Shown here piece after piece: positions 1,532-56,170 of a stretch of 64,000 bases of DNA; the first letter of the stretch is position 1, and every line of letters begins with the position of its first letter. Below the pieces are notes generated by a model. That model saw only the letters and a program-made list of their open reading frames with translations. It had not been told where the DNA came from and searched no databases. The DNA comes from Myxococcales bacterium (lineage in GTDB: Bacteria > Myxococcota > Myxococcia > Myxococcales > UBA5297): contig JBMNNX010000001.1 in assembly GCA_050942745.1 (NCBI GenBank), forward strand, positions 22,938 to 86,937. Direction: 5' to 3'. The translations under genes were made by a program, and so were the position numbers.

Positions 1532-2704
1532 CTAGCCGGCCGCCTTGCCGCAGCTCGGGCAGAACTTGGCTCCCGGGGCGAGCTCGGTGCCGCACTCGCA
1601 CTTCTTCGGCCCCGCCACGGGCTTGCCGCAGTTGGAGCAGAACTTCGCGCCGGGCGCGAGCTCGGCGCCGCACTCGCACTTCGGGTCGACGGCGGCGAGC
1701 GGCTTGCCACAGGAGCTGCAGAACTTGCCCGGAGGGGTCTGCGAGCCGCACGAGGGGCAGCGGATCGTCTGCGGCTGCTGCACGGCCTGCTGCTGCACCA
1801 ACTGCTGCTGGGCGAACATGTTGGCCATGCCGAAGCCCATGCCCATCCCCATGCCGCCGAGCGCGCCGCTGGCGCCCTCGCCGCCCTTGGCCATGCCCTG
1901 GCCGGCCCCGCGCATCATCTCCGCCTGCGCGACCGCCATGTAGGCCGGGTTTTGGGCGAGCGCCATCCGCCGCTGGTCGTCGGCGATGGCCGTGTTGCGC
2001 CGGTTCAGCTCGGCCTTGTCCTCGTCGCTGATCGAGAGGACGAAGTTGCCGAACTGTACGACCTGGATCCCGTAGCGATCGATCTCGTCCTTGATCTGCT
2101 TGAGGACCGCCTCCTGCAACTCGAGCTTGAAGTGCGGGCTGATCATCTTGTTGAGCGACCAGCCCTGCTCGCCCAGCTCGCCGACGGCATCCGACATGTA
2201 CTTCATGAGGATGCCCTTGAACCAATCGAGGAAGGCGTTGTTGGTCTGCAGCTCCTTGCCCGAGCCGACCATCCCGAAGATGAGCTTCTCGGGGTCGGTC
2301 ACCTTCACCGAGAAGTCGCCGTAGACCATCGCGTCGCACATCATCTGCGTGACGGTGTCGGTCACCGAGCCGAGCGGGCCACCGAACTTGATCGAGGGCA
2401 CCTCGCGGGTCGAGACGAAGTAGAGCTCGGCGACAAAGAGGTTGCCGTCGGTCACCTTCTCGAGCAGCGCCGAGAGGAAGGGGATGTTCTTGGCGTCAAG
2501 GCTGTAGGTGCCGCCGGGGCCGAGGTGGCCAGCCACCTTCCCGTCCTTGACGAAGATCGCCATCTCGTCGGGCTGGCAGGTGAGCTGCGTCAGCATCCGG
2601 ATGTTCTTCTCCGGGTACCGATAGATGATGTCCTGGCGGGCCTCATCGGAGCGGGCGATGAAGTTGCGCTTGGCCTCGTTGGCGATGGAGCTGAAAATCC
2701 CCAT
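1532..2704 (-). CDS. SPFH/band-7 family protein with three C-terminal zinc ribbons (YdjI / 'virion core protein'-like)
   Basis: Start re-set to ATG 2702-2704 (MGIFSSIANEAKRNF...), with GGAG upstream. The SPFH-like body is followed by a Gly/Met/Gln-rich linker and three C..C-(10-12)-C..C ribbons (CPSCG..FCSSCG, CECG..FCSNCG, CECG..FCPSCG). Confidence 0.7.
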   Translation of the reverse strand: MGIFSSIANEAKRNFIARSDEARQDIIYRYPEKNIRMLTQLTCQPDEMAIFVKDGKVAGHLGPGGTYSLDAKNIPFLSALLEKVTDGNLFVAELYFVSTREVPSIKFGGPLGSVTDTVTQMMCDAMVYGDFSVKVTDPEKLIFGMVGSGKELQTNNAFLDWFKGILMKYMSDAVGELGEQGWSLNKMISPHFKLELQEAVLKQIKDEIDRYGIQVVQFGNFVLSISDEDKAELNRRNTAIADDQRRMALAQNPAYMAVAQAEMMRGAGQGMAKGGEGASGALGGMGMGMGFGMANMFAQQQLVQQQAVQQPQTIRCPSCGSQTPPGKFCSSCGKPLAAVDPKCECGAELAPGAKFCSNCGKPVAGPKKCECGTELAPGAKFCPSCGKAAG

Positions 2705-2746
2705 GTCGTCTCCTTCCTTCGGTGGCGCCCAAAAAAATGCGCGCGA

Positions 2747-2776
2747 ATCGTAACCTGCTCGCGCCGATAGCTGCAA
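2747..2776 (-). promoter_or_regulatory. candidate sigma70-type promoter for the SPFH gene
   Basis: Minus strand TTGCAG (2771-2776), 18-nt spacer, TACGAT (2747-2752), about 45 nt upstream of the ATG. The -35 sits inside an 8-bp inverted repeat, GCCGATAG..CTATCGGC (2764-2771 / 2804-2811). Confidence 0.3.
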
Positions 2777-3045
2777 TTGGCGCGCCCCCTTGGCGGGCGT
2801 AACTATCGGCCCTCGATTTCCGGCAGAACGAGCCTGCTCGCGGCGCGCTCCAGCGGTGGTTTTCGCCGACAACAGGCGTGCCTTCCCAACCGCGCTTCGC
2901 GCCGCTCCACTCCCGGCCGATTCGACCGGGCCCAAGACCCAACTTGCGTCGGTCGCAAGTTATGCCGGAGTGCGACCGAGCCTGCCCCGCGACCTCGCTC
3001 GCGCCGGCCGCAAGCTGCGCGCCGGGCCCTCCGCCCGTTGCTGAG

Positions 3046-3831
3046 TCAGGACCAGCGAGTGAGCAGCCGGTCACGATCGAAGAAGCGCACCGCGACCCGC
3101 AGCATCACGACGTCGGCGGCCAGAGCGGCGAGCGCGGTCAGCGCGTAGGCGAGCGGGCCAAAGGCGAGCAGTCCGACGAACTGCAGGACCACGACGCCGA
3201 CGAAGGGCATGACCACCAGCCCCGCGAGCGACTGCGCGAGCCGCACGTCGCTCACCCGCGCGCTGATCAGCACCGAGATGCAGTTGCCGAGGAACGACAG
3301 CAGCGGCGCGAGCACGAAGACGGCGAAGAGGAAGGTGGCGTCCGGCAGCACGAGCCGGCCGAGCAGCGGCCAGCAGATGAGATCGGCACCGACGGCGAAC
3401 ACCACGAAGGCGACGAGCGTGATTCCCGTCGCCGGCACGACCGTCGCGAGGCTCTTCCCGAGCACCAGCTCGCGCGCGGTGATCGGCGTGGCGAGCAGCG
3501 GCTCGAGCGTGCGGCGCTCCTTCTCTCCGGCGACCGACTGCGAGGCGATGAGCACCGGCAGGAAGACCGGCATCGCCAAGAAGAGCCCAATGGCGTTGCG
3601 CAGCGTCACCTGGACGATGGCCTCGGAGATCGGCGTGTCGCCGAGGTCTCCGACGTACCAGCGCGCTATCGCCGCCACGCTCGGATCGTTCGCACCGCGC
3701 ACGTAGGTCGCGAGAACGAAGAGCGAGACGACGACCATCGTGATCGGCAGCCCGCTCAGCGAGGCGATCAGCGAGCGGTTGGAGAGGATTTCGGAGAGCT
3801 CCTTGCGGAGGACAATCGCGGCGCGGCCCAT
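3046..3831 (-). CDS. ABC-2 type transporter permease
   Basis: 261 aa with about 6 hydrophobic spans. It has the N-terminal ...LRKELSEILSNR... and GEKERRTLEPLL motif typical of ABC-2/NatB-like permeases. ATG at 3829-3831. Confidence 0.7.
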   Translation of the reverse strand: MGRAAIVLRKELSEILSNRSLIASLSGLPITMVVVSLFVLATYVRGANDPSVAAIARWYVGDLGDTPISEAIVQVTLRNAIGLFLAMPVFLPVLIASQSVAGEKERRTLEPLLATPITARELVLGKSLATVVPATGITLVAFVVFAVGADLICWPLLGRLVLPDATFLFAVFVLAPLLSFLGNCISVLISARVSDVRLAQSLAGLVVMPFVGVVVLQFVGLLAFGPLAYALTALAALAADVVMLRVAVRFFDRDRLLTRWS

Positions 3832-4049
3832 AGGCTCACGGTTCTTTCATTCGGCGGATGGGGCCGTCAACGGCAGGCATGATGCGCCGGCTTCGGAGGC
3901 TGGACGGCGGAGCGGGACGAGGATGGACGGCGGAGCTCCAGCTCCGCCACGCCGTACCGATTGGCTGGGCGGCCAGGGCGGCGCGAAAGCCCCAGCGGCC
4001 GAGCACAATCACCACCTCAACTCTCGACCCTCGACCCTCGGGCTGTCGG
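3808..4049. repeat. direct repeat copy A (about 242 bp): permease first 8 codons plus its upstream region
   Basis: Aligns by eye at roughly 85% identity with 4951..5193. It begins gaggacaatcgcggcgcggcc and ends with the ctcgaccctcgaccctcg heptads. Confidence 0.85.
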
Positions 4050-4405
4050 TCGACGCATCGCCCCCGGTAAGCCAAGTGCCCGGCGCGCCTGAAGAAGGCC
4101 TGTGCCAGGCAGCGCGATGCGAACGGCGCGCATCACCGCACTCGGGGAGGCGACGACGATCACGAAGGCCCCGGTGTCCGAACAGTAGTAGGCAGTATTC
4201 GCAGAGCCATGTCGGCAATCGGCGACCACCGTACCCGCCCTTGCCGCGTGGGCTTTTCGACTTGCGCGGTTCGTGAGGCGTGAGGCTCCGAGTAGGCTGC
4301 TCGGGGCTCGAAGACGGAACCCCGCCCCGACGAATCGAGGCCGGGCACTCCAAAGTCGCCTCTTCCAGCGGCCAGTCGCCTGCTGGGATTTTGAAGAAGC
4401 CTCTG

Positions 4406-4814
4406 GCATCCGCCAATCGTCTTCTGGGAGACAGAGAACGGCTTTGGCGCGCGCCAATCGTGTTCTGGGCGACAGAGAACGGCTTTGGCGCCAGCTAATC
4501 GTGTTCTGGGCGACAGAGAACGGCTTTGGCGCCCGCCAATCGCGTTCTGGGAGTCAGAGAAGGCCTCGGGCGCTGGGAAATCGCGTTCTGGGAGCCAGAG
4601 AACGGCTTTGGCGCCCGCCAATCGCGTTCTGGGAGCCAGAGGAGGCCTCGGGCGCCCGCCAATCGCGTTCTTGGCGCCGGAGAAGGCCTTTGGCGCCCGC
4701 CAATCGCGTTCTTGGAGCCGGATAAGGCCTCTGGCGCCCGCCAATCGTCTTCTGGGAGTCAGAGAACAGCTTTGGCGCGCGCCAATCGCGTTCTGGGAGC
4801 CGGAGAAGGCCGTG
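4406..4814. repeat. tandem array, 10 units of about 41 bp, each an imperfect hairpin
   Basis: Consensus GGCGCCCGCCAATCGCGTTCTGGGAGCCAGAGAAGGCCTTT. Ten consecutive units were read directly. 41 is not a multiple of 3, so all three frames give the same pseudo-peptide. There are no spacers. Confidence 0.9.
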
Positions 4815-4950
4815 GCTCCGACTCAGCCTCTCGGCAACCGCGTTCCCGCGAGCGCGAGCACCCTGTCGAATTGAGCCCGGGTCACCGGCGCCACCGAAAG
4901 CCGCGTGCGCGTCACCAGCGCGAAGTCCTTCAGCGCCCCGTCCACTTCAC

Positions 4951-5193
4951 GAGGACAATCGCGGCGCGGCCGACAGGCCCACGGTCCTTTCGTTCGGCGG
5001 ATGGGGTCGTCAACGGCGGGCACGATTCGCCGGCTTCGGAGGCTGGACAGCGGAACGGGACGAGGCGAGACGCCGGAGCCAGCTCCGCCCCACCGTGCCG
5101 ATAGCTGGGCGGCCAGGGCGGCGCGAAGCCCCAGCGGCCGAGCACAATCACGACTTCAACTCTCGACCCTCGACCCTCGACTCTCGACTGTCG
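4951..5193. repeat. direct repeat copy B (about 243 bp) with a relic permease start (ATG replaced by GTC)
   Basis: The minus strand reads V-G-R-A-A-I-V-L, against M-G-R-A-A-I-V-L for the real permease, then diverges and hits a stop after 14 codons. Confidence 0.85.
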
Positions 5194-5254
5194 CCGGCAA
5201 TGTCAGCCCCCCTTGCTAGCCTCCTCGCACCACACTTCGAGGAGGCCCCCGACC

Positions 5255-5500
5255 ATGACGATCCGCAGCCCGAGCAACGCGCAGGTGATCCGCCACGAGA
5301 CCTTCGACGCGACCGAGCTCCGCGCCTTGCGCGCACACCGCAAGGGCAAGATGCGCCTGCTGCTCGAGGTGAACGCCTCGCGCCTTTCGAGCCTGCTCGC
5401 GGCCGACGACGACCGGCAGCTCTACCGCTGCACCGAGTTCGACAGCGAGGCCGAGCTGCTCTCGGCCTTCGAGCGCGCCGCGCTCGCGCTCGCGCGCTAG
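5255..5500 (+). CDS. small hypothetical protein (81 aa)
   Basis: ATG at 5255 is preceded by GGAGG at 5241-5245. Third positions are G/C-rich. I recognise no motif. Confidence 0.45.
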   Translation: MTIRSPSNAQVIRHETFDATELRALRAHRKGKMRLLLEVNASRLSSLLAADDDRQLYRCTEFDSEAELLSAFERAALALAR

Positions 5501-5684
5501 TCGCGGCAAGACCGGCGCGGGGAACGGGCTCGAACGACTCGGCCCGGGGGCGAAGCTCCCGCCCGGAATTCGGGCTCCAGCTTCACGCCGCCTGGCGAAG
5601 GCTGGGGCTCCGGCCTGCCTCGGCCCTTCGCCCCGCGCGCAAGAATCGCCGCGTAAGGCTTCGCCTCGCTGCCGCCTTCCCGTC

Positions 5685-6014
5685 TCAGCGCATCTTGCAG
5701 CGCTCGATACAGGCGACCAGCTCGCGCAGGTGCGGCTCCTCTATCCGGTAGAGCGCGTGCCCGCCCCTTCGCGTGGCAGCGACCAGGCGGCGCATCCGCA
5801 GTATTCGCAACTGCTGCGAAACGATGGCCTGCTTTGCCTCGAGCAGCTCAGCGAGCCGTTTGACGTGGAGCGGCTCCTCGCACAGCAGGGCGATGATCTG
5901 CAGCCGCAGCGGATGGGCGACAGCCTTGAGGATCTCGGCCGCTTGCTCAGCCTTCTCCGGCTCGATGGGCTTCAAGGAGGGCGCGTGCTTTCGACGGGCT
6001 AGGGTCCCGGGCAT
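5685..6014 (-). CDS. ArsR/SmtB-family transcriptional regulator
   Basis: Winged-helix signature ...LKAVAHPLRLQIIALLCEEPLHVKRLAELLEAKQAIVSQQLRILRMRRLV.... The start was chosen at ATG 6012-6014 (GGAG 7 nt upstream) rather than 6050, which lacks an RBS. Confidence 0.8.
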   Translation of the reverse strand: MPGTLARRKHAPSLKPIEPEKAEQAAEILKAVAHPLRLQIIALLCEEPLHVKRLAELLEAKQAIVSQQLRILRMRRLVAATRRGGHALYRIEEPHLRELVACIERCKMR

Positions 6015-6053
6015 GAGATCGCTCCAGTGGACAGACGCACGACCGTTCATCTA

Positions 6054-6992
6054 TCAGATTTCACTGGTCGACTGGCCAGCGCCGCCGCCGACGAGCTCGA
6101 GGTAGGCGCGCTCGAGCTCACGCGCCGCGGGCCTGACCGCCTGGATCCTCCCGCCGAGCGCGACGATCCGGCCGACGAGCTCGGGGACGCCGTCGGAAGC
6201 GGCGATGCGCACGCGCAGCGTCCCCGCCTCGGCCTCCACCGCCTCGATCCCCGGCGCGCCTCGCAGCCTCTCGGCGAGCCCAGCGGCCTCTTCGGCCAGC
6301 TCGATGGCGACATGGCTTGTGCCCGAGAGCAGGCTCGAGATCTCGCCCATGGCGAGGATGCGCCCCTTGACGATCGCCACCCGGTCGCACAGCCGCTCGG
6401 CCTCGTCGAGGTTGTGGGTGCACAGGACGATGGTGCGCCCCTCGCCGGCGAGCCGCTCGACCAGCGCGCGCACGGTGGCGCTCGCCTCCGGGTCGAGCCC
6501 GCTCGTCGGCTCGTCGAGGAAGACGACCTTCGGCTCGTGGATGAGCGTCCGGGCGATGGCGAGCTTCTGGCGCATGCCCTTCGAGAAGCCGCCGACCCGC
6601 TCGTGCTCGCGCCCGCTCAGCCCGAAGGTTTCGAGCACCTTCCCGATGCGCTCGCGCGCCGTCGCTTCCTCGACCCCGTAGAGGCGCGCGAAGTAGAGCA
6701 GGTTCTCGAGCGCGCTGAGCCGGTCGTACAGCCCAGGCTGCTCGGTGAGCAGGCCGACCGAGGCGCGCACGCCGAGGTCGTCGGCGCCCAGCCGCAGCCC
6801 GCAGATCTCGGCCTCGCCCTCGCTCGGCGCGAGCAGGGCGCACAGCATGCGCACCGTGGTCGTCTTGCCGGCGCCGTTGGGCCCGAGCAGACCGAAGACC
6901 TCGCCCTTGCCGACCGAGAAGCTGAGCCCCTCGACTGCCGTGCGCTCGCCGAAGCGGCGCCCGAGGTTGCGGGCAACGATCGCCTCGCTCAT
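6054..6992 (-). CDS. ABC transporter ATP-binding protein (ABC-2 exporter type)
   Basis: Walker A GPNGAGKTT, signature FSKGMRQKL, Walker B VVFLDEPTSGLD, and H-loop CTHNL. Confidence 0.9.
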   Translation of the reverse strand: MSEAIVARNLGRRFGERTAVEGLSFSVGKGEVFGLLGPNGAGKTTTVRMLCALLAPSEGEAEICGLRLGADDLGVRASVGLLTEQPGLYDRLSALENLLYFARLYGVEEATARERIGKVLETFGLSGREHERVGGFSKGMRQKLAIARTLIHEPKVVFLDEPTSGLDPEASATVRALVERLAGEGRTIVLCTHNLDEAERLCDRVAIVKGRILAMGEISSLLSGTSHVAIELAEEAAGLAERLRGAPGIEAVEAEAGTLRVRIAASDGVPELVGRIVALGGRIQAVRPAARELERAYLELVGGGAGQSTSEI

Positions 6993-7043
6993 CGCGGGCT
7001 CGAGCGGCGCCGGGGAGTCTCCCTGGGCTCGGCGCGCATCCTC

Positions 7044-15967: not shown

Positions 15968-16274
15968 GAGCGGAGTCGAAGGGCTCGTCGATTCCGCGCG
16001 GCGCACCCGTTCGCCCTGAGCGTAGCTCCCGACGCGCAAGCGGCGGGAGCGGAGTCGAAGGGCTCCTCGATTCCGCGCGGCGCACCCGTTCACCCTGAGC
16101 GTAGCTCCCGACGCGCAAGCGGCGGCAGCGGAGTCGAAGGGCTCGTCGATTCCGCGCGGCGCACCCGTTCACCCTGAGCGTAGCTCCCGACGCGCAAGCG
16201 TCGGGAGCGGAGTCGAAGGGCTCCTCGAACTCACGCAGGGCCCTCGAATCCGCCTCCCGCGTTCCGCGGGAGGC
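15968..16274 (+). repeat. composite intergenic repeat: 3 full 79-bp units, a truncated unit, and a terminal 10-bp GC hairpin
   Basis: Units start at 15968, 16047, 16126 and 16205 (exact 79-bp period). Each holds the stem GCTCCCG..CGGGAGC. The terminal hairpin is GCCTCCCGCG-TTC-CGCGGGAGGC at 16252-16274, abutting the GT4 stop codon. Confidence 0.9.
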
Positions 16275-25100: not shown

Positions 25101-28595
<3,495 letters not shown>

Positions 28596-36944: not shown

Positions 36945-37349
36945 AGCCCCGCGAGCATCGACGGCCCCTCGACCCTGGGGGCGAGGCCAATAGCGTTCGG
37001 CCTGAGTGTGGCTGCCGTTGACGTCGGCAGCGGAGTCGATGGTCCCCTCGACCTGGGACGAGGCAAACACCGTTCGGCCAGAGCGAAGCTGCCGACGTGT
37101 GCGTCAGCAGCGCAGTCGAACGGCCGCTCGTTCTTGGGCGAGGCCGATACCGTTCGGCCCCGAGCGCAGCTGCCGACGCGCAAGCAGCGGGAGCGAAGTC
37201 GAAGGGCCCCTCGTTCTTGGGCGAGGCCAGTACCGTTCGGCCTGAGCGTAGCTCCCGTCGCGCAAGCGGCGGGAACGAAGTCGAAGAGCCACTTCGAACC
37301 CAGAGCGGCCCCTCGAATTCGCCTCCCGCGTTCCGCGGGAGGCTACGCT
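36945..37349 (+). repeat. second composite intergenic repeat: about 4.5 diverged 79-83-bp units plus the same terminal GC hairpin as 16252-16274
   Basis: gtcga(a/t)gg landmarks at 36955, 37034, 37114, 37197 and 37279. It ends ...cctcgaattcGCCTCCCGCGttcCGCGGGAGGCtacgctc (hairpin 37320-37342), near-identical to the end of the 16-kb array. Confidence 0.8.
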
Positions 37350-37351
37350 CC

Positions 37352-37375
37352 TAACTAACAGCTCCCCCTGTTAGT
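37352..37375. other. AT-rich perfect hairpin built from the AACTAAC heptad
   Basis: AACTAACAG-CTCCCC-CTGTTAGTT (9-bp perfect stem), immediately after the composite repeat. No U-tract on either strand. Confidence 0.6.
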
Positions 37376-37466
37376 TCAAGGCCACAGCCGGCCAACGGGC
37401 CGGTCTCTCGCTCGGGGTGACCGGAGAGGAGGCTCTTGCTCCTCGGCGCAGTCGCTCAAGTCCGCT

Positions 37467-39974: not shown

Positions 39975-40190
39975 CCGTGCGGCGGCCCGCGCACCCCTTC
40001 CGAAGCCTCCGGCTCCCGCGCGCGGCTCGCCGAGCGCCCTTTCCGAGCGTCCGGATCGCCCCTGCGGCGGCCCGAACGCCCCTTCCACAGCGTCCGGAAC
40101 CCTTGCGCGGCTTGCCGAGCGCGCGATTTCCAGACACCGAATCACCCGCGCGGCGATTGAACGGTTCATCCAACCCGGGCCGCGTGCGGC
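39975..40190. repeat. about five diverged tandem units of about 42-43 bp
   Basis: gcggcggcccgcgcaccccttccgaagcctccgg / gcgcggctcgccgagcgccctttccgagcgtccgg / gcggcggcccgaacgccccttccacagcgtccgg / gcgcggcttgccgagcgcgcgatttccagacaccg, and so on. Located in the waaA-M23 intergenic region. Confidence 0.6.
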
Positions 40191-44274: not shown

Positions 44275-45276
44275 TTGTCCGACCGGAAAGAAAACCCGCT
44301 GGCCACCAACATCGCGGACGACGTGATCGCGAGGGCGCTCGAGAGCGTTGAGCGACACGCCAAGCCGGCCAATGAGGCCGAGCCGGCGGCCCAGGAGCCC
44401 GCCGAGCTGCCGCCGCGGGCCGAGGAGGCGCCGGCGGCCGCCGCGGAGCCGGCCGACTCGCAGGCCGAGGTGAAGAAGCTCCTCGACGAGATCCGCGGGC
44501 TGAAGAGCGATCTGCTCGAAGCCCGGCAGGCGCTGCGCCAACGCGAGGCCGAGCTCGAGGCGAGCCAGGCGATGGGCCGCAAGACGATGGATCAGCTTCG
44601 CGAGCAGCACGAGCGCCTGCTGCGCGCCGCCGCCGACCTCGAGAACTTCAAGAAGCGCGCGGCCCGCGAGCGCGAGGAGGCGAACAAGTTCGGTCAGGAG
44701 AAGCTGCTGCGCGAGCTGCTGCCTATCGGCGACAACCTGGACCGCGCGCTCGAGCACGCCAGGTCGCCCTCGGACTTCGAGGGCCTCAAGACGGGCATCC
44801 AGATGACCCGCAGGCTCTTCGACAACACGCTCGCCAAGTTTGGCGCCAAGGGCTTCTCGGCCGTCGGCAAGCCGTTCGATCCCAATCTGCACGAGGCGAT
44901 GCAGGTGGTCGAATCCGACGAGGCGCCGAGCACGGTGCTCCAGGAGATGGTGTGCGGCTACATGCTGCACGATCGGTTGATGAGGCCGGCGATGGTGATC
45001 GTCGCGAAGGCCAAGCCCGCCGCTGCGCCGCAGCCTGCCGCAGCCGAGCAGCCTGCCGCAGCCGAGCAGCCTGCCGCAGCCGAGCAGCCTGCCGCAGCCG
45101 AGCAGCCTGCCGCAGCCGAGCAGCCTGCCGAGCAAGCGTCGGCCGAGAGGCCGCGCGAGCAGGAGTCCGAGGCCGGGGCTGCCGAATCGGCAGCAGCGGC
45201 CGAGCAGACGAGCGCACCTGAGCCCGCCGAGACCGCGGATGCGGCGCGCGGAGGGAAGAGCGCGATCGAGGAGTAG
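44275..45276 (+). CDS. grpE: nucleotide exchange factor GrpE with a long low-complexity C-terminal tail
   Basis: DLENFKKRAAREREEANKFGQEKLLRELLPIGDNLDRAL. The likely start is TTG 44275, 6 nt after AAGGAG (44263-44268). TTG 44260 is the alternative. Confidence 0.85.
   Translation: MSDRKENPLATNIADDVIARALESVERHAKPANEAEPAAQEPAELPPRAEEAPAAAAEPADSQAEVKKLLDEIRGLKSDLLEARQALRQREAELEASQAMGRKTMDQLREQHERLLRAAADLENFKKRAAREREEANKFGQEKLLRELLPIGDNLDRALEHARSPSDFEGLKTGIQMTRRLFDNTLAKFGAKGFSAVGKPFDPNLHEAMQVVESDEAPSTVLQEMVCGYMLHDRLMRPAMVIVAKAKPAAAPQPAAAEQPAAAEQPAAAEQPAAAEQPAAAEQPAEQASAERPREQESEAGAAESAAAAEQTSAPEPAETADAARGGKSAIEE
45031..45132 (+). repeat. five perfect 18-bp tandem repeats plus a partial sixth, inside grpE (encodes QPAAAE x5)
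   Basis: cagcctgccgcagccgag repeated exactly at 45031, 45049, 45067, 45085 and 45103. The partial copy starts at 45121. Confidence 0.95.
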
Positions 45277-48540: not shown

Positions 48541-48545
48541 CGACG

Positions 48546-48578
48546 GTCGAGAGTCGAGGGTCGAGGGTCGAGAGTTGG
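48546..48578 (+). repeat. GTCGAGR heptad micro-array immediately after the dnaJ stop
   Basis: gtcgaga gtcgagg gtcgagg gtcgaga gttgg. The same element occurs at 51048-51080 (+), 4018-4045 (-) and 5157-5193 (-). Confidence 0.85.
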
Positions 48579-49032: not shown

Positions 49033-51048
49033 TTGCTTCGCCAAGCTCCAGCCACCGTTCTTGCCATGTGCGTGGGACTTGCCCTCCTGGGCTGCCCAAT
49101 GCGTGTCGGCTCCAACGAGCTCGACGCGACCTCGCGCGAGAAGGTCGATCAGGCCAGGCTCCAGGTCGAGTCAGGGCGGCCCGACGAGGCCGTGCGCCTG
49201 CTCAACGACGTCCCCGAAGCCAACAACGAAGTCGCCCAGATCCTCTTCCAAGCGGCCGAGGCCCACTACCGCGCCCGCGAGCTCGGGCCCGCGCGCCAGA
49301 GCTACCGCGATCTGCTCGCGCGCTTCCCGCTCTTCCCCGAAAACGACACCGCCCGCTACCACCTCGCGCTCGTCCAACTGGAGCTCAACGAGCATCGCGA
49401 CGCGCTGCAGGCACTTTCGGCGCTCTATCCGCGGCTCGACGAGGATCGCAAGCTCGAGGCGGCCAGCCACCTCGCTCGCGCCGCCGAGAGCTCTCGCCAG
49501 TGGGGCGAGGCGGTGCGCTGGCACGGCGAGCGCGCGACGCGGGCCCGAGACGAGGCGACCCGGCAGGCCGCGGTGCAGCGGGTCTTCGAGATCCTCGAGT
49601 CGCGCGTCTCCTTCCTGGAGGTCGCCCGGCTTGCTCAGCAGATTGAGCCGAGCTCGCCGATCTGGGCTCTCGTGCAGTTCAAGCTCGCGAAGATCTTCGC
49701 GCACCTGCGCGACCGCACCCGCCTGCGCGAGACGCTCGAGACGCTGCTCGCCCACACCCCCGGCTCGCCCTGGGCGTCCGAGGCGCAGTCGATGCTTGCC
49801 CGGCTGGACAGGCGCCAGGAGGTCAAGCCCGACACGGTCGGCCTGCTGCTGCCGATGAGCGGTAAGTTCAAGCCGATAGGCGAGTCGGTGCTCGCCGGCG
49901 TCCAGCTCGCGCTCAAGGGCAGCAAAATCCGCGTCGTCACTCGCGACACCGCCGGCGAGCCGGCCCAGGCGCGCCGCGCGGTCGCCGAGTTGGCCGAGGA
50001 CGAGCAGGTCATCGCGATCATCGGCCCGGTGCTCACCTCGGTCAGCGAGGACGCCGCCGCCGAGGCCGAGTTGCAGGAGACGCCCATCTTCACGCTCACC
50101 CGCGCAGAGGGCATCACCGACATCGGCCCGTACGTCTTCCGCAACATGCTCACCAACAGCGCCCAGGCCGCGGCGCTGGTCGACTACGCGATGCGGGTGA
50201 AGGGCTTCAAGCGCTTCGCGCTGCTCTACCCGAACATCCCCTACGGCAACGAGCTCGCGAACTACTTCTGGGACGAGGTCGAGGCGCGCGGCGGCGAGAT
50301 CCGCGGCGCCGAGAGCTACGACGCAGACCAGACGACCTTCGGCCCGGTGGTCAAGAAGCTGGTCGGCCGCTACTACCTCGACCAACGCGAGGAGTTCGTC
50401 CAAAAGCGGCGCGAGATCACCGAGAAGGTCAAGGACCCGTACCGCCAGCGCAAGATGATCGAGGACGCGTACTCGAAGCTGCCGCCGATCATCGACTTCG
50501 ACGCCATCTTCATCCCCGACTACTACAAGAACGTTGGCCTGGTCGCGCCCGCGCTCGCGGTCGAGGACGTGATCACCAACGCCTGCGACAAGCGCGACCT
50601 CGAGCGCATCGCCAAGACGACCGGGCGCACGCCGAACCAGATCAAGACCGTGCAGCTCCTCGGCGCCAACGGCTGGAACTTCGAAGAGCTCGTCGAGCGC
50701 GGCGGCAAGTTCGTGCAGTGCTCGGTCTTCGTCGACGGCTTCTTCGAGAAGTCGGACCGCAAGGAGACCCGGGCCTTCGTCGAGGAGTTTCGCAAGGCGA
50801 CCGGGCGCGCGCCCTCGCTGCTCGAGGCGACCGGCTACGACACCGCGCTCATCACGCGCCACATCATCGAGACACAGAGTCCGACCACGCGCGGCACCTT
50901 CCGCGAGGCGCTCACCCGCGTCAAGGACTTCCCCGGCGTCACCGGCCGCACGTCCATCAACGAGAAGCGCGAGGCCGAGAAGCCTCTGTTCATGCTCTCG
51001 ATCGATCGCGACGGGATCGCCGAGATCGACAGCGAGATTAAGAGCTAG
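49033..51048 (+). CDS. lipoprotein: N-terminal TPR-like region plus a type-1 periplasmic-binding-fold domain (LivK/LpoA-like)
   Basis: TTG start at 49033 (AAGGTG upstream) gives MLRQAPATVLAMCVGLALLGC (lipobox). ...VGLLLPMSGKF..IGESVLAGVQLAL....VVTRDTAG.P....AV.EL..DE.V.AIIGP.... Confidence 0.65.
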   Translation: MLRQAPATVLAMCVGLALLGCPMRVGSNELDATSREKVDQARLQVESGRPDEAVRLLNDVPEANNEVAQILFQAAEAHYRARELGPARQSYRDLLARFPLFPENDTARYHLALVQLELNEHRDALQALSALYPRLDEDRKLEAASHLARAAESSRQWGEAVRWHGERATRARDEATRQAAVQRVFEILESRVSFLEVARLAQQIEPSSPIWALVQFKLAKIFAHLRDRTRLRETLETLLAHTPGSPWASEAQSMLARLDRRQEVKPDTVGLLLPMSGKFKPIGESVLAGVQLALKGSKIRVVTRDTAGEPAQARRAVAELAEDEQVIAIIGPVLTSVSEDAAAEAELQETPIFTLTRAEGITDIGPYVFRNMLTNSAQAAALVDYAMRVKGFKRFALLYPNIPYGNELANYFWDEVEARGGEIRGAESYDADQTTFGPVVKKLVGRYYLDQREEFVQKRREITEKVKDPYRQRKMIEDAYSKLPPIIDFDAIFIPDYYKNVGLVAPALAVEDVITNACDKRDLERIAKTTGRTPNQIKTVQLLGANGWNFEELVERGGKFVQCSVFVDGFFEKSDRKETRAFVEEFRKATGRAPSLLEATGYDTALITRHIIETQSPTTRGTFREALTRVKDFPGVTGRTSINEKREAEKPLFMLSIDRDGIAEIDSEIKS

Positions 51049-51080
51049 TCAAGAGTCGAGGGTCGAGAGTCGAGAGTTTG
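51048..51080 (+). repeat. GTCGAGR heptad micro-array overlapping and following the stop of the LpoA-like gene
   Basis: gtcaaga gtcgagg gtcgaga gtcgaga gtttg. Confidence 0.8.
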
Positions 51081-55985: not shown

Positions 55986-56170
55986 GGGCCGGCTTCGCGC
56001 CGGCATCCGGGCGCGCCAGCACGAAGGCTGGCGCTCCTCATCTTCGCTCCCGGGCTTCGTTCCGGCTGCCGGGCGCGCCAGCACGAAGGCTGGCGCTCCT
56101 CATCTTCGCTCCCGGGCTTCGTTCCGGCTGCCGGGCGCGCCAGCACGAAGGCTGGCGCTCCTCATCTTCC
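55986..56170. repeat. 62-bp tandem repeat, about 3 copies, each with an 8-bp perfect stem
   Basis: The unit gggcgcgccagcacgaaggctggcgctcctcatcttcgctcccgggcttcgttccggctgcc starts at 56009, 56071 and 56133. The stem is GCGCCAGC-ACGAAG-GCTGGCGC. It lies between the ftsK stop and the SGNH gene start. Confidence 0.9.

What the first reader, a model, noticed from the sequence alone, without database searches (positions are those of the whole stretch)
3808..5193. 243-bp direct repeats, one holding a dead copy of the permease start, bracket a ~900-bp noncoding insert
Copy A (3808-4049) is the live 5' end of the ABC-2 permease (MGRAAIVL...) plus its upstream leader. Copy B (4951-5193) is roughly 85% identical by eye. 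In copy B the ATG is replaced by GTC, and homology stops exactly 8 codons into the gene.

Between the copies lie about 350 bp of unique noncoding DNA and the 41-bp array. The simplest reading is that copy B marks the ancestral position of the permease start, and that a 1.14-kb unit (insert plus duplicated leader) was interposed.

243 bp is far too long for a transposon target-site duplication. No transposase or integrase is present, so the mechanism is unclear.
Basis: partly seen in the sequence, partly recalled or inferred. Interest (0 to 1): 0.6.

Follow-up and report, generated by a model that had tools for sequence, protein, structure and literature searches.

The report
Duplicated leader flanking captured gene fragment
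About 0.9 kb from another locus (the tail of an EVE-domain gene plus the 41-bp repeat array that follows it) sits at the start of a transporter gene with 243 bp of the target repeated on both sides; it is a real but fairly ordinary rearrangement scar, not a mobile element.

Summary
Copy A (3808-4049) and copy B (4951-5193) are 89% identical direct repeats. Each holds about 218 bp of upstream DNA plus the first 8 permease codons. In copy B the ATG is GTC.

The main interpretation holds. In three related Myxococcota genomes a conserved 79-81 aa gene lies divergently about 100 bp from the permease. In the window that gene, and a motif conserved beside it, adjoin copy B only.

Positions 4823-4950 are the last 41 codons plus stop of an EVE-domain gene. 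The array and 294 bp beyond it are collinear with an EVE locus in another organism (85% identity over 870 bp). An intact EVE gene elsewhere is followed directly by the same array. The same metagenome-assembled genome (MAG) carries at least two more EVE-tail ORFs on other contigs.

The outer edge of both copies is a short dispersed heptamer element. There is no transposase, integrase, terminal inverted repeat, structured RNA or coding signal.

Best reading: a scar of illegitimate or ectopic recombination. I favour a duplication joined at the heptamer element, followed by a later deletion. This is a new instance of a known kind of event. Interest is low to moderate.

The parts
3046..3831 (-). 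Live ABC-2 family permease gene (261 aa, ATG at 3831-3829)
   Evidence: Pfam ABC2_membrane_2/3. N-terminus conserved in homologues. Strong GC3 signal.
3808..4049 (-). Copy A: the first 8 permease codons (3808-3831) plus 218 bp upstream. Includes a TTGACG-N17-AAAGAA box just before the ATG.
4018..4049 (-). Heptamer element in copy A (CGACAG, 3 x TCGAGRG-like units, TTG). It forms the distal edge of the repeat.
4050..4076 (.). 27-nt orphan sequence at junction J1, between EVE-locus DNA and copy A. No source found.
   Evidence: Only 44% identical to L096 over 4041-4076, which is no homology. No other match.
4077..4370 (-). Unique noncoding DNA that natively lies downstream of the array at an EVE locus
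   Evidence: 84.6% identical and collinear with L096 2690-2964. No Pfam hit and no GC3 signal.
4371..4811 (-). 41-bp tandem array, about 10.7 units, each an imperfect palindrome
   Evidence: Collinear unit by unit with the 11-unit array of L096 (85.1%). The same array follows the stop codon of the intact EVE gene in L097-L100.
4823..4950 (-). EVE-domain gene remnant: 41 codons plus TGA stop (4823-4825). It is joined directly to permease codon 8 (junction J2 at 4950/4951), with a 1-nt deletion next to the junction.
   Evidence: Pfam EVE, E = 0.0015, profile positions 117-144 of 145. phmmer hits at E = 3.6e-12 to 1.3e-11 end at the C-termini of P0121-P0123. 38 of 39 residues identical to the C-terminus of the intact 141-aa P0135. 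DNA alignment.
4951..5193 (-). Copy B: dead permease 5' end (GTC instead of ATG; + strand GAC at 4972-4974) plus 219 bp upstream
   Evidence: Confirmed in the independent contig L007.
5157..5193 (-). Heptamer element in copy B (CGACAG, 4 x TCGAGRG, TTG)
   Evidence: It shares 31-mers with 48541-48577.
5194..5254 (.). Unduplicated ancestral part of the divergent spacer. Holds the conserved motif CTAGCAAGGGGGGCTGACAT (5200-5219, minus strand) and a hairpin (5219-5246) containing the AGGAGG ribosome-binding site.
   Evidence: The motif occurs once per relative's spacer and nowhere else in the DNA held.
5255..5500 (+). Conserved 81-aa gene of unknown function (ACOX6T_00130), the ancestral divergent neighbour of the permease
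   Evidence: GC3 of 0.95-0.97. Orthologues 53-56% identical in L009, L013 and L018, 95-105 bp from the permease. Locus tag.

Best explanation
This is a passive scar of chromosomal rearrangement. It is not a mobile element and not a functional device.

Ancestral state (shown by synteny): small gene, then a short divergent spacer, then the permease.

Present state (shown): small gene - motif - [heptamer element, upstream DNA, permease codons 1-8] (copy B) | EVE codons ~100-141 and stop - 41-bp array - 294 bp - 27-nt orphan | [heptamer element, upstream DNA, permease codons 1-8 and onward] (copy A). The 0.9 kb in the middle is a copy of part of an EVE-gene locus.

Most likely path (inferred):
1. 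An ectopic exchange between two copies of the dispersed heptamer element made a duplication. One copy lay in the permease upstream region and the other downstream of an EVE locus. The join point of that duplication is J1.
2. A later illegitimate deletion, with no microhomology, ran from permease codon 9 to about EVE codon 99. It removed almost all the redundant material and created J2.

Consequences (inferred):
- Each divergent gene kept one copy of the shared upstream region, so the rearrangement was tolerated.
- Copy A supplies the live promoter-like box and start codon.
- Copy B may still fire a transcript into the remnant and the array, but ATG to GTC prevents translation.

I put about 0.8 on 'rearrangement scar built from EVE-locus DNA' and about 0.4 on this specific two-step path.
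For: Ancestral order and motif.

Origin of the insert:
- 84.9% identity over 870 columns with L096.
- 81% identity over 307 columns with L097-L100, where an intact EVE gene precedes the array.
- EVE-tail ORFs on two other contigs. P0121 carries the window's locus-tag prefix ACOX6T, and P0252's accession falls in the same MGI586 series.

Not a discrete element:
- L096 and L097 homology continues at least 60 bp past the window's junction into EVE.
- No terminal inverted repeats, transposase or integrase.

The heptamer element lies exactly at the distal edge of both copies and recurs at 48541, 51047 and in L001. This fits J1 having formed within that element.

J2 looks younger than the duplication:
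- A and B differ by 11% plus 4 indels.
- The remnant has only 2 private substitutions in 122 nt, both at third codon positions, and its frame is intact.
- About 6.7 private changes would be expected if the truncation were as old as the A/B split; Poisson P(<=2) = 0.04.

Noncoding and unstructured.
Against: - The two-step path predicts a second EVE-array-unique-orphan-heptamer copy downstream of the live permease. None is present in the 7.9 kb visible in L001.
- The EVE-tail ORFs found lie on contigs of 20.8 and 31.9 kb, not on the 93-kb contig that carries the window's genes.
- The age argument rests on small counts and on equal neutral rates.
- The heptamer coincidence could instead reflect a fragile site.
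- The DNA of the paralogous EVE loci could not be retrieved.
- J1 is seen in only one assembly.
Confidence: 0.4

Rival explanations
1. One-step duplicative capture. Two ends staggered by 243 bp (sister chromatids, or a collapsed fork) were joined, with a 0.9-kb piece of an EVE locus copied or ligated between them. The route would be NHEJ-type joining or microhomology-mediated template switching. The 27-nt orphan would be junction filler.
For: - Only two novel junctions are needed.
- J2 has no microhomology, and J1 carries 27 nt with no identifiable source. Both are typical of end-joining or template-switch junctions.
- No second copy of the insert exists in the window or in L001.
Against: - It does not explain why the repeat edge coincides with a dispersed heptamer element. 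I estimate the chance for a random break in a ~280-bp spacer at about 0.03.
- It does not explain why the EVE remnant looks 3-4 times younger than the A/B divergence.
Confidence: 0.3
2. Remnant of an integrated circular DNA or genomic island. Either a single (Campbell-type) crossover occurred through a 243-bp homologous segment, or site-specific integration used long att repeats that rebuild the permease 5' end. Most of the element was later lost.
For: - The geometry fits exactly: direct repeats of a gene end flank foreign DNA, with one displaced dead gene start.
- The 11% divergence between the repeats would be expected if one copy arrived with the incoming DNA. That would also resolve the age mismatch.
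- The EVE-tail module is multi-copy in the MAG.
Against: - No integrase, replication or transfer gene lies in the insert or within about 8-10 kb.
- The module has no matches in the phage, plasmid or viral collections.
- The incoming circle would already have needed the illegitimate permease-codon-8/EVE join.
- The module's ends differ between copies.
Confidence: 0.1
3. Copies A and B are two members of a dispersed intergenic repeat family (a mobile promoter or MITE-like unit), and the 900 bp between them is incidental.
For: - The terminal heptamer element really is dispersed.
- Three Logan assemblies break at 3949 inside copy A for no reason visible in the window. A further partial copy elsewhere could explain that.
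Against: - There are only two copies in 64 kb.
- A 20-mer shared by both copies gave only chance hits in the genome and metagenome collections.
- The unit contains 8 conserved permease codons.
- Its proximal 45 bp is homologous to the permease upstream region of L009.
- Relatives show the short ancestral spacer.
Confidence: 0.04
4. Assembly artefact: a chimeric join inside the 41-bp array or the heptamer repeats of the MAG contig.
For: - Short-read assemblies break at 3949 and 5165.
- J1 is seen only in the window.
- The MAG holds several EVE-tail copies that could confuse an assembler.
Against: - J2 and copy B are reproduced in an independent JGI assembly.
- Copy A-specific variants are attached to the permease in Logan contigs.
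- The array is collinear unit by unit with L096.
- The contig restores the conserved small-gene/permease neighbourhood. A random chimera would not.
Confidence: 0.04

Closest known systems
Tandem (segmental) duplication with a novel join point, later remodelled by deletion. Described for bacterial gene amplification, for example in the Salmonella lac system by Roth, Andersson and colleagues (my own knowledge, not read here).
   Same: - Head-to-tail direct repeats with a constant offset.
- One junction lies at a short dispersed repeat.
- A second, illegitimate junction lies inside a gene.
- Most of the duplicated material has been removed.
   Different: - Only 243 bp of duplicated DNA survives.
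- The copies are 11% diverged, so the structure is old and stable rather than a transient amplification.
- The predicted second copy of the EVE segment has not been seen.
Campbell-type single-crossover integration, and genomic islands whose att repeats rebuild the target gene's end
   Same: Direct repeats of a gene end flank foreign DNA. One gene start is displaced and dead, and the other is intact.
   Different: - No integrase, replicon or cargo genes.
- The insert is a chromosomal gene tail plus its downstream DNA.
- The module's ends are not fixed between copies.
Transposon or insertion-sequence target-site duplication
   Same: Direct repeats of target sequence border an insertion.
   Different: - 243 bp rather than 2-14 bp.
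- The repeats are imperfect.
- No transposase and no terminal inverted repeats.
Templated insertions at break-repair junctions (NHEJ capture, microhomology-mediated break-induced replication / fork stalling and template switching; my own knowledge)
   Same: A segment copied from elsewhere lies between duplicated flanks. The junctions have zero or short microhomology, and there is orphan filler sequence.
   Different: These are mostly documented in eukaryotes. No direct evidence for this route exists here, and it does not account for the heptamer-element boundary.
Stand-alone EVE (PUA-like) domain proteins, PF01878 (PMC7641849 appeared in search; I did not read it)
   Same: The remnant matches the last ~28 positions of the Pfam profile. 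It is 38/39 identical to the C-terminus of an intact 141-aa EVE protein.
   Different: Only about 29% of the gene is present, so it cannot encode a folded EVE domain. It is a pseudogene fragment.

Membership tests
Transposable element (IS/Tn/MITE) with target-site duplication | Transposase gene, or terminal inverted repeats at the ends of the insert | tested here: not met
   No Pfam family for any ORF across 3740-5104 except the EVE tail. No inverted repeat pairs 4050 with 4950. No coding signal.
Transposable element (IS/Tn/MITE) with target-site duplication | Short target duplication of fixed length (2-14 bp) | tested here: not met
   The repeats are 242/243 bp and 89% identical.
Transposable element (IS/Tn/MITE) with target-site duplication | Discrete ends shared by all copies | tested here: not met
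   L096/L097 homology runs at least 60 bp beyond the window's J2 into the EVE gene. L096 and the window diverge 27 nt before J1.
Integrative element / genomic island | Integrase (tyrosine or serine recombinase) gene next to an att site | tested here: not met
   None among the called genes with Pfam hits within about 8-10 kb on either side, and none in the insert.
Integrative element / genomic island | Direct att repeats that duplicate the end of the target gene | tested here: inconclusive
   The geometry is compatible. However, 243 bp at 89% identity with no identifiable core is not diagnostic.
Dispersed intergenic repeat family (for the 243-bp unit) | Several copies at unrelated loci | tested here: inconclusive
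   Only two copies in 64 kb. A shared 20-mer gave only chance hits in the genome and metagenome collections. The rest of the source MAG is not available, and the contig break at 3949 is unexplained.
Dispersed intergenic repeat family (for the 243-bp unit) | The unit is independent of neighbouring gene sequence | tested here: not met
   It contains 8 conserved permease codons, and a proximal region homologous to the permease upstream region of L009.
Tandem / segmental duplication | Head-to-tail copies at a constant offset, with a novel join point | tested here: met
   Offset of 1143 to 1139 bp across the repeat. Junctions J1 and J2 are defined to the base by comparison with L096 and L097.
Tandem / segmental duplication | The second copy covers the whole unit | tested here: not met
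   Only 243 of 1143 bp are present twice. A secondary deletion, or a different origin, is needed.
EVE domain gene (PF01878) | Full-length EVE domain (~145 profile positions) | tested here: not met
   Only profile positions 117-144 are matched, at 19 bits against a 23-bit cutoff. The upstream sequence is copy B.
EVE domain gene (PF01878) | Specific homology to intact family members | tested here: met
   38/39 identical to the C-terminus of the 141-aa P0135, which has a Pfam EVE hit. phmmer E-values reach 3.6e-12.

The most novel reading that the evidence does not exclude
The EVE-tail/41-bp-array module would be a multi-copy unit that spreads within this myxobacterial lineage by a copy-and-paste route. 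That route would use the dispersed heptamer element as a recombination or priming site and leave long (hundreds of bp) target duplications. It would be a non-autonomous element of a kind not yet described. The evidence so far: at least three EVE-tail copies in the MAG (the window remnant plus ORFs on two other contigs), and the whole module conserved at 85% in another organism in a different genomic context.
Probability: 0.08. Interest if true: 0.6.

Novelty: new member of a known kind. Interest (0 to 1): 0.3.

Why it matters
On its own this is a well-resolved example of how a short divergent promoter region in a GC-rich myxobacterial genome grew from about 100 bp to 1.4 kb by rearrangement.

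- Both flanking genes kept a copy of the shared upstream DNA. That explains why such a disruptive event was tolerated.
- It identifies an unannotated EVE pseudogene fragment and a dead gene start. From the consecutive protein accessions I infer that the depositors' annotation has no protein-coding gene in this gap.
- It flags a short heptamer element, usually sitting just after stop codons, as a possible recombination hot spot.
- If the EVE-tail/array module proves to be actively copied, the locus would be the first characterised insertion of that module.

Tried and rejected
- **Rfam:** nothing on 2500-7000, even at E <= 1.
- **Folding:** both upstream regions fold no better than shuffles, with z = +0.4 and +1.0. 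This is not a structured leader.
- **Coding test:** indels break every frame between the copies. There is no GC3 periodicity in 3832-5220 except a faint signal in the EVE frame.
- **Consensus scan:** no promoter or terminator found.
- **Word-indexed protein search with the 41-aa fragment:** no candidates. The full HMMER scan was needed.
- **Collection scans:** a leader 20-mer gave nothing in genome contigs and two chance hits in metagenome contigs. The source MAG is not in those collections. The array core gave nothing in viral contigs. The insert gave no match in plasmids or phages.
- **Contig look-ups:** P0121, P0123 and P0252, which include the paralogous copies from the same MAG, returned nothing.
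- **Extending the A/B homology** beyond the heptamer element into the conserved motif: local alignment score equals the shuffle mean. Rejected.
- **Source of the 27-nt orphan:** none found.
- **RNAalifold on 17 array units:** no consensus hairpin.
- **Array as a general feature of myxobacterial EVE genes:** no. The Archangium violaceum EVE gene has none.
Full report
**Observation**

The window is 70% G+C and comes from a Myxococcales metagenome-assembled genome (MAG) with locus-tag prefix ACOX6T. Reading the minus strand from right to left, the genes are:
- a PMT_2 glycosyltransferase (8918-7044);
- an ABC ATPase (6992-6054);
- an ArsR regulator (6050-5685);
- 1.42 kb without coding signal;
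- an ABC-2 permease (3831-3046);
- an SPFH/zinc-ribbon protein.

An 81-aa gene (5255-5500) lies on the plus strand.

Copy A (3808-4049) and copy B (4951-5193) match at 89.3% identity over 233 columns (E = 1.6e-83), with four small indels. There is no third copy in the 64 kb.

Homology starts exactly after permease codon 8. The peptide MGRAAIVL is conserved at the N-terminus of homologues, so copy B truly holds a dead gene start: GTC GGC CGC ... CTC, then out-of-frame sequence and a stop.

The repeat is not coding, because indels break all frames and there is no GC3 periodicity. It matches no Rfam family and folds no better than shuffled sequence.

**Which side is ancestral**

The permease's closest long-contig relatives are L009/L010 (70% identity), L013/L017 (61-62%) and L018 (63%). 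All have an orthologue of the 81-aa gene (53-56% identity) as the divergent neighbour, with only 95-105 bp between the two start codons.

That short spacer contains two recognisable parts:
- The motif CTAGCA-N3-GGG-N2-3-GACAT lies beside the small gene. It occurs once per relative, once in the window (5200-5219, beside copy B), and nowhere else in all the DNA held.
- In L009, a TTGACG-N17-A-rich box lies just before the permease ATG. Both window copies have it.

The ancestral order is therefore small gene - motif - proximal box - permease, and the material between copy B and the live gene is derived.

The window lineage had also gained about 170-190 bp inside the spacer before the duplication. 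This extra DNA starts with the heptamer element and is present in both copies.

Another branch, L011/L012/L016, has a different upstream gene.

**What the insert is**

Pfam gave a weak EVE-domain hit for 4823-4948 on the minus strand: E = 0.0015, covering profile positions 117-144 of 145.

A full HMMER scan then found proteins whose extreme C-termini match at 85-90% identity, with E = 3.6e-12 to 1.3e-11. The remnant is 38/39 identical to the C-terminus of an intact 141-aa EVE protein, P0135.

At the DNA level:
- Window 4076-4942 is 84.9% identical and collinear with contig L096, from another metagenome.
- Window 4651-4950 is 81% identical to L097-L100, where the intact EVE gene's stop codon is followed directly by the same 41-bp array.

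By segment, identity to L096 is:

| Segment | Identity to L096 |
|---|---|
| EVE remnant | 94% |
| 41-bp array | 85% |
| Unique 294 bp | 85% |
| Last ~36 nt before copy A (4041-4076) | 44% (no homology) |

So the insert is EVE codons ~100-141 with the stop, then the array, then 294 bp, then a 27-nt orphan.

The flanks in L096 are unrelated to the window. L096's own EVE homology to L097 extends 60 bp further 5' than the window's. The module therefore has no fixed ends and does not behave as a discrete transposable unit.

Two more ORFs with near-identical EVE tails lie on other contigs, of 20.8 and 31.9 kb. P0121 (ACOX6T_13390) carries the MAG's locus-tag prefix. P0252 (MGI5861880.1) has an accession in the same series and most likely belongs to the same MAG. 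Their DNA could not be retrieved.

**Junctions**

J2 (4950/4951) joins ...ATT GTC CTC of the permease to GTGAAG... of EVE, with no microhomology.

J1 lies at the outer edge of a ~40-nt element, CGACRG(TCGAGRG)3-4TTG. This element:
- ends both copies;
- recurs right after the stop codons of a DnaJ gene (48541) and a periplasmic-binding-protein gene (51047);
- recurs in L001, outside the window;
- is absent from about 95 loci of other Myxococcota.

**Timing**

Copies A and B differ by 11% plus four indels. The EVE remnant has only two private substitutions in 122 nt relative to L096 and L097. Both are at third codon positions, and one is absent from the independent contig L007. Its frame is intact and its peptide equals the family consensus.

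By contrast, L096's copy has five private changes, all at first or second codon positions, so it is a decaying pseudogene. The intact L097 gene has six, five of them at third positions.

If the truncation were as old as the A/B split, about 6.7 private changes would be expected; P(<=2) = 0.04. This suggests either that J2 is younger than the duplication, or that the two copies were already diverged when they were joined.

**Mechanism**

Shown:
- the present structure;
- the foreign origin of the 0.9 kb;
- the ancestral gene order;
- the absence of mobility genes within about 8-10 kb;
- the absence of any phage, plasmid or viral match.

Inferred and preferred (about 0.4): an ectopic exchange between two heptamer elements created a duplication whose join is J1. 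A later illegitimate deletion, from permease codon 9 to about EVE codon 99, created J2 and removed the redundant genes.

Rivals:
- one-step capture between ends staggered by 243 bp (0.3);
- remnant of an integrated circle or island (0.1);
- a dispersed 243-bp family (0.04);
- misassembly (0.04).

The main weakness of the preferred path is that its predicted second EVE-array copy downstream of the permease is not within the 7.9 kb I can see.

Functionally, each divergent gene retains one copy of the shared upstream DNA. Copy B may still promote a noncoding transcript into the array. This is untested.

**Assembly**

- J2, copy B and the small gene are reproduced in a JGI contig.
- Copy A variants are linked to the permease in Logan contigs.
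- The array is collinear with L096.
- The contig restores the conserved gene neighbourhood.
- Logan contigs break at 5165, which is explained by 31-mers shared with the heptamer element at 48541. They also break at 3949, which is unexplained.

**Verdict**

This is a real feature. It is a new instance of a known kind of event, a duplication/insertion scar. Interest is 0.3.

Noticed in passing
window 4018-4049(-), 5157-5193(-), 48541-48577(+), 51047-51078(+); L001 7846-7880: A dispersed ~40-nt element, CGACRG(TCGAGRG)3-4TTG. In the sense orientation it starts within a few nt of the stop codons of a DnaJ gene and a Peripla_BP_6/LppC-like gene. It also forms the distal edge of both 243-bp copies. 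It is absent from about 95 loci of other Myxococcota. Function unknown.
   Followed up: partly
window 4371-4811; L096 2242-2689; L097 1130-1291: The 41-bp array (imperfect palindrome CGCCAA..GTTCT..AGAAC..TTGGCG) is conserved unit by unit between organisms (85%). It always follows an EVE gene's stop codon. Copy number is stable (about 10.7 versus 11). RNAalifold finds no consensus hairpin, and the Archangium violaceum EVE gene (L101) lacks the array.
   Followed up: partly
window 5200-5219 and 5219-5246; L009 9929-9948; L013 9933-9952; L018 7936-7955: The motif CTAGCA-N3-GGG-N2-3-GACAT is conserved 35-38 nt upstream of the 79-81 aa gene of unknown function in four lineages. In the window, that gene's AGGAGG ribosome-binding site is sequestered in a 9-bp hairpin.
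   Followed up: partly
window 3949 (ends of L001-L003): Three independent short-read assemblies of the same organism all end at 3949 inside copy A, next to a 20-nt near-palindrome (3929-3948). No 31-mer there is repeated in the window. This could mean an extra copy elsewhere or a population polymorphism.
   Followed up: partly
window 37343-37426; L096 3102-3182: An 85-bp stretch is 90% identical between the window, next to the 80-83-bp tandem array at 36958-37290, and the unrelated contig L096. This is another dispersed repeat shared between organisms.
   Followed up: no
window 15968-16228, 36958-37290, 55991-56169, 45030-45130, 25185-25311, 39987-40122: The window is unusually rich in tandem arrays with periods of 18-83 bp. 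The 79-bp and 83-bp units share the sub-motifs CGACGCGCAAGCGGCGG and AGTCGAAGGGC.
   Followed up: no
L014 8190-8213; L015 2126-2149; window 5132-5154: Two unrelated low-GC metagenome contigs share an exact 24-mer, TCAGCGGCCGAGCACAATCACGAC, with each other. 23 nt of it match copy B exactly. This is probably chance, but it is 3-4 nt longer than the searched pattern in both contigs.
   Followed up: partly
L096 261-4188: The related contig carries almost 4 kb with no believable gene (its 318-aa call looks like a noncoding artefact). The stretch contains the decayed EVE tail, the array and other repeats.
   Followed up: partly
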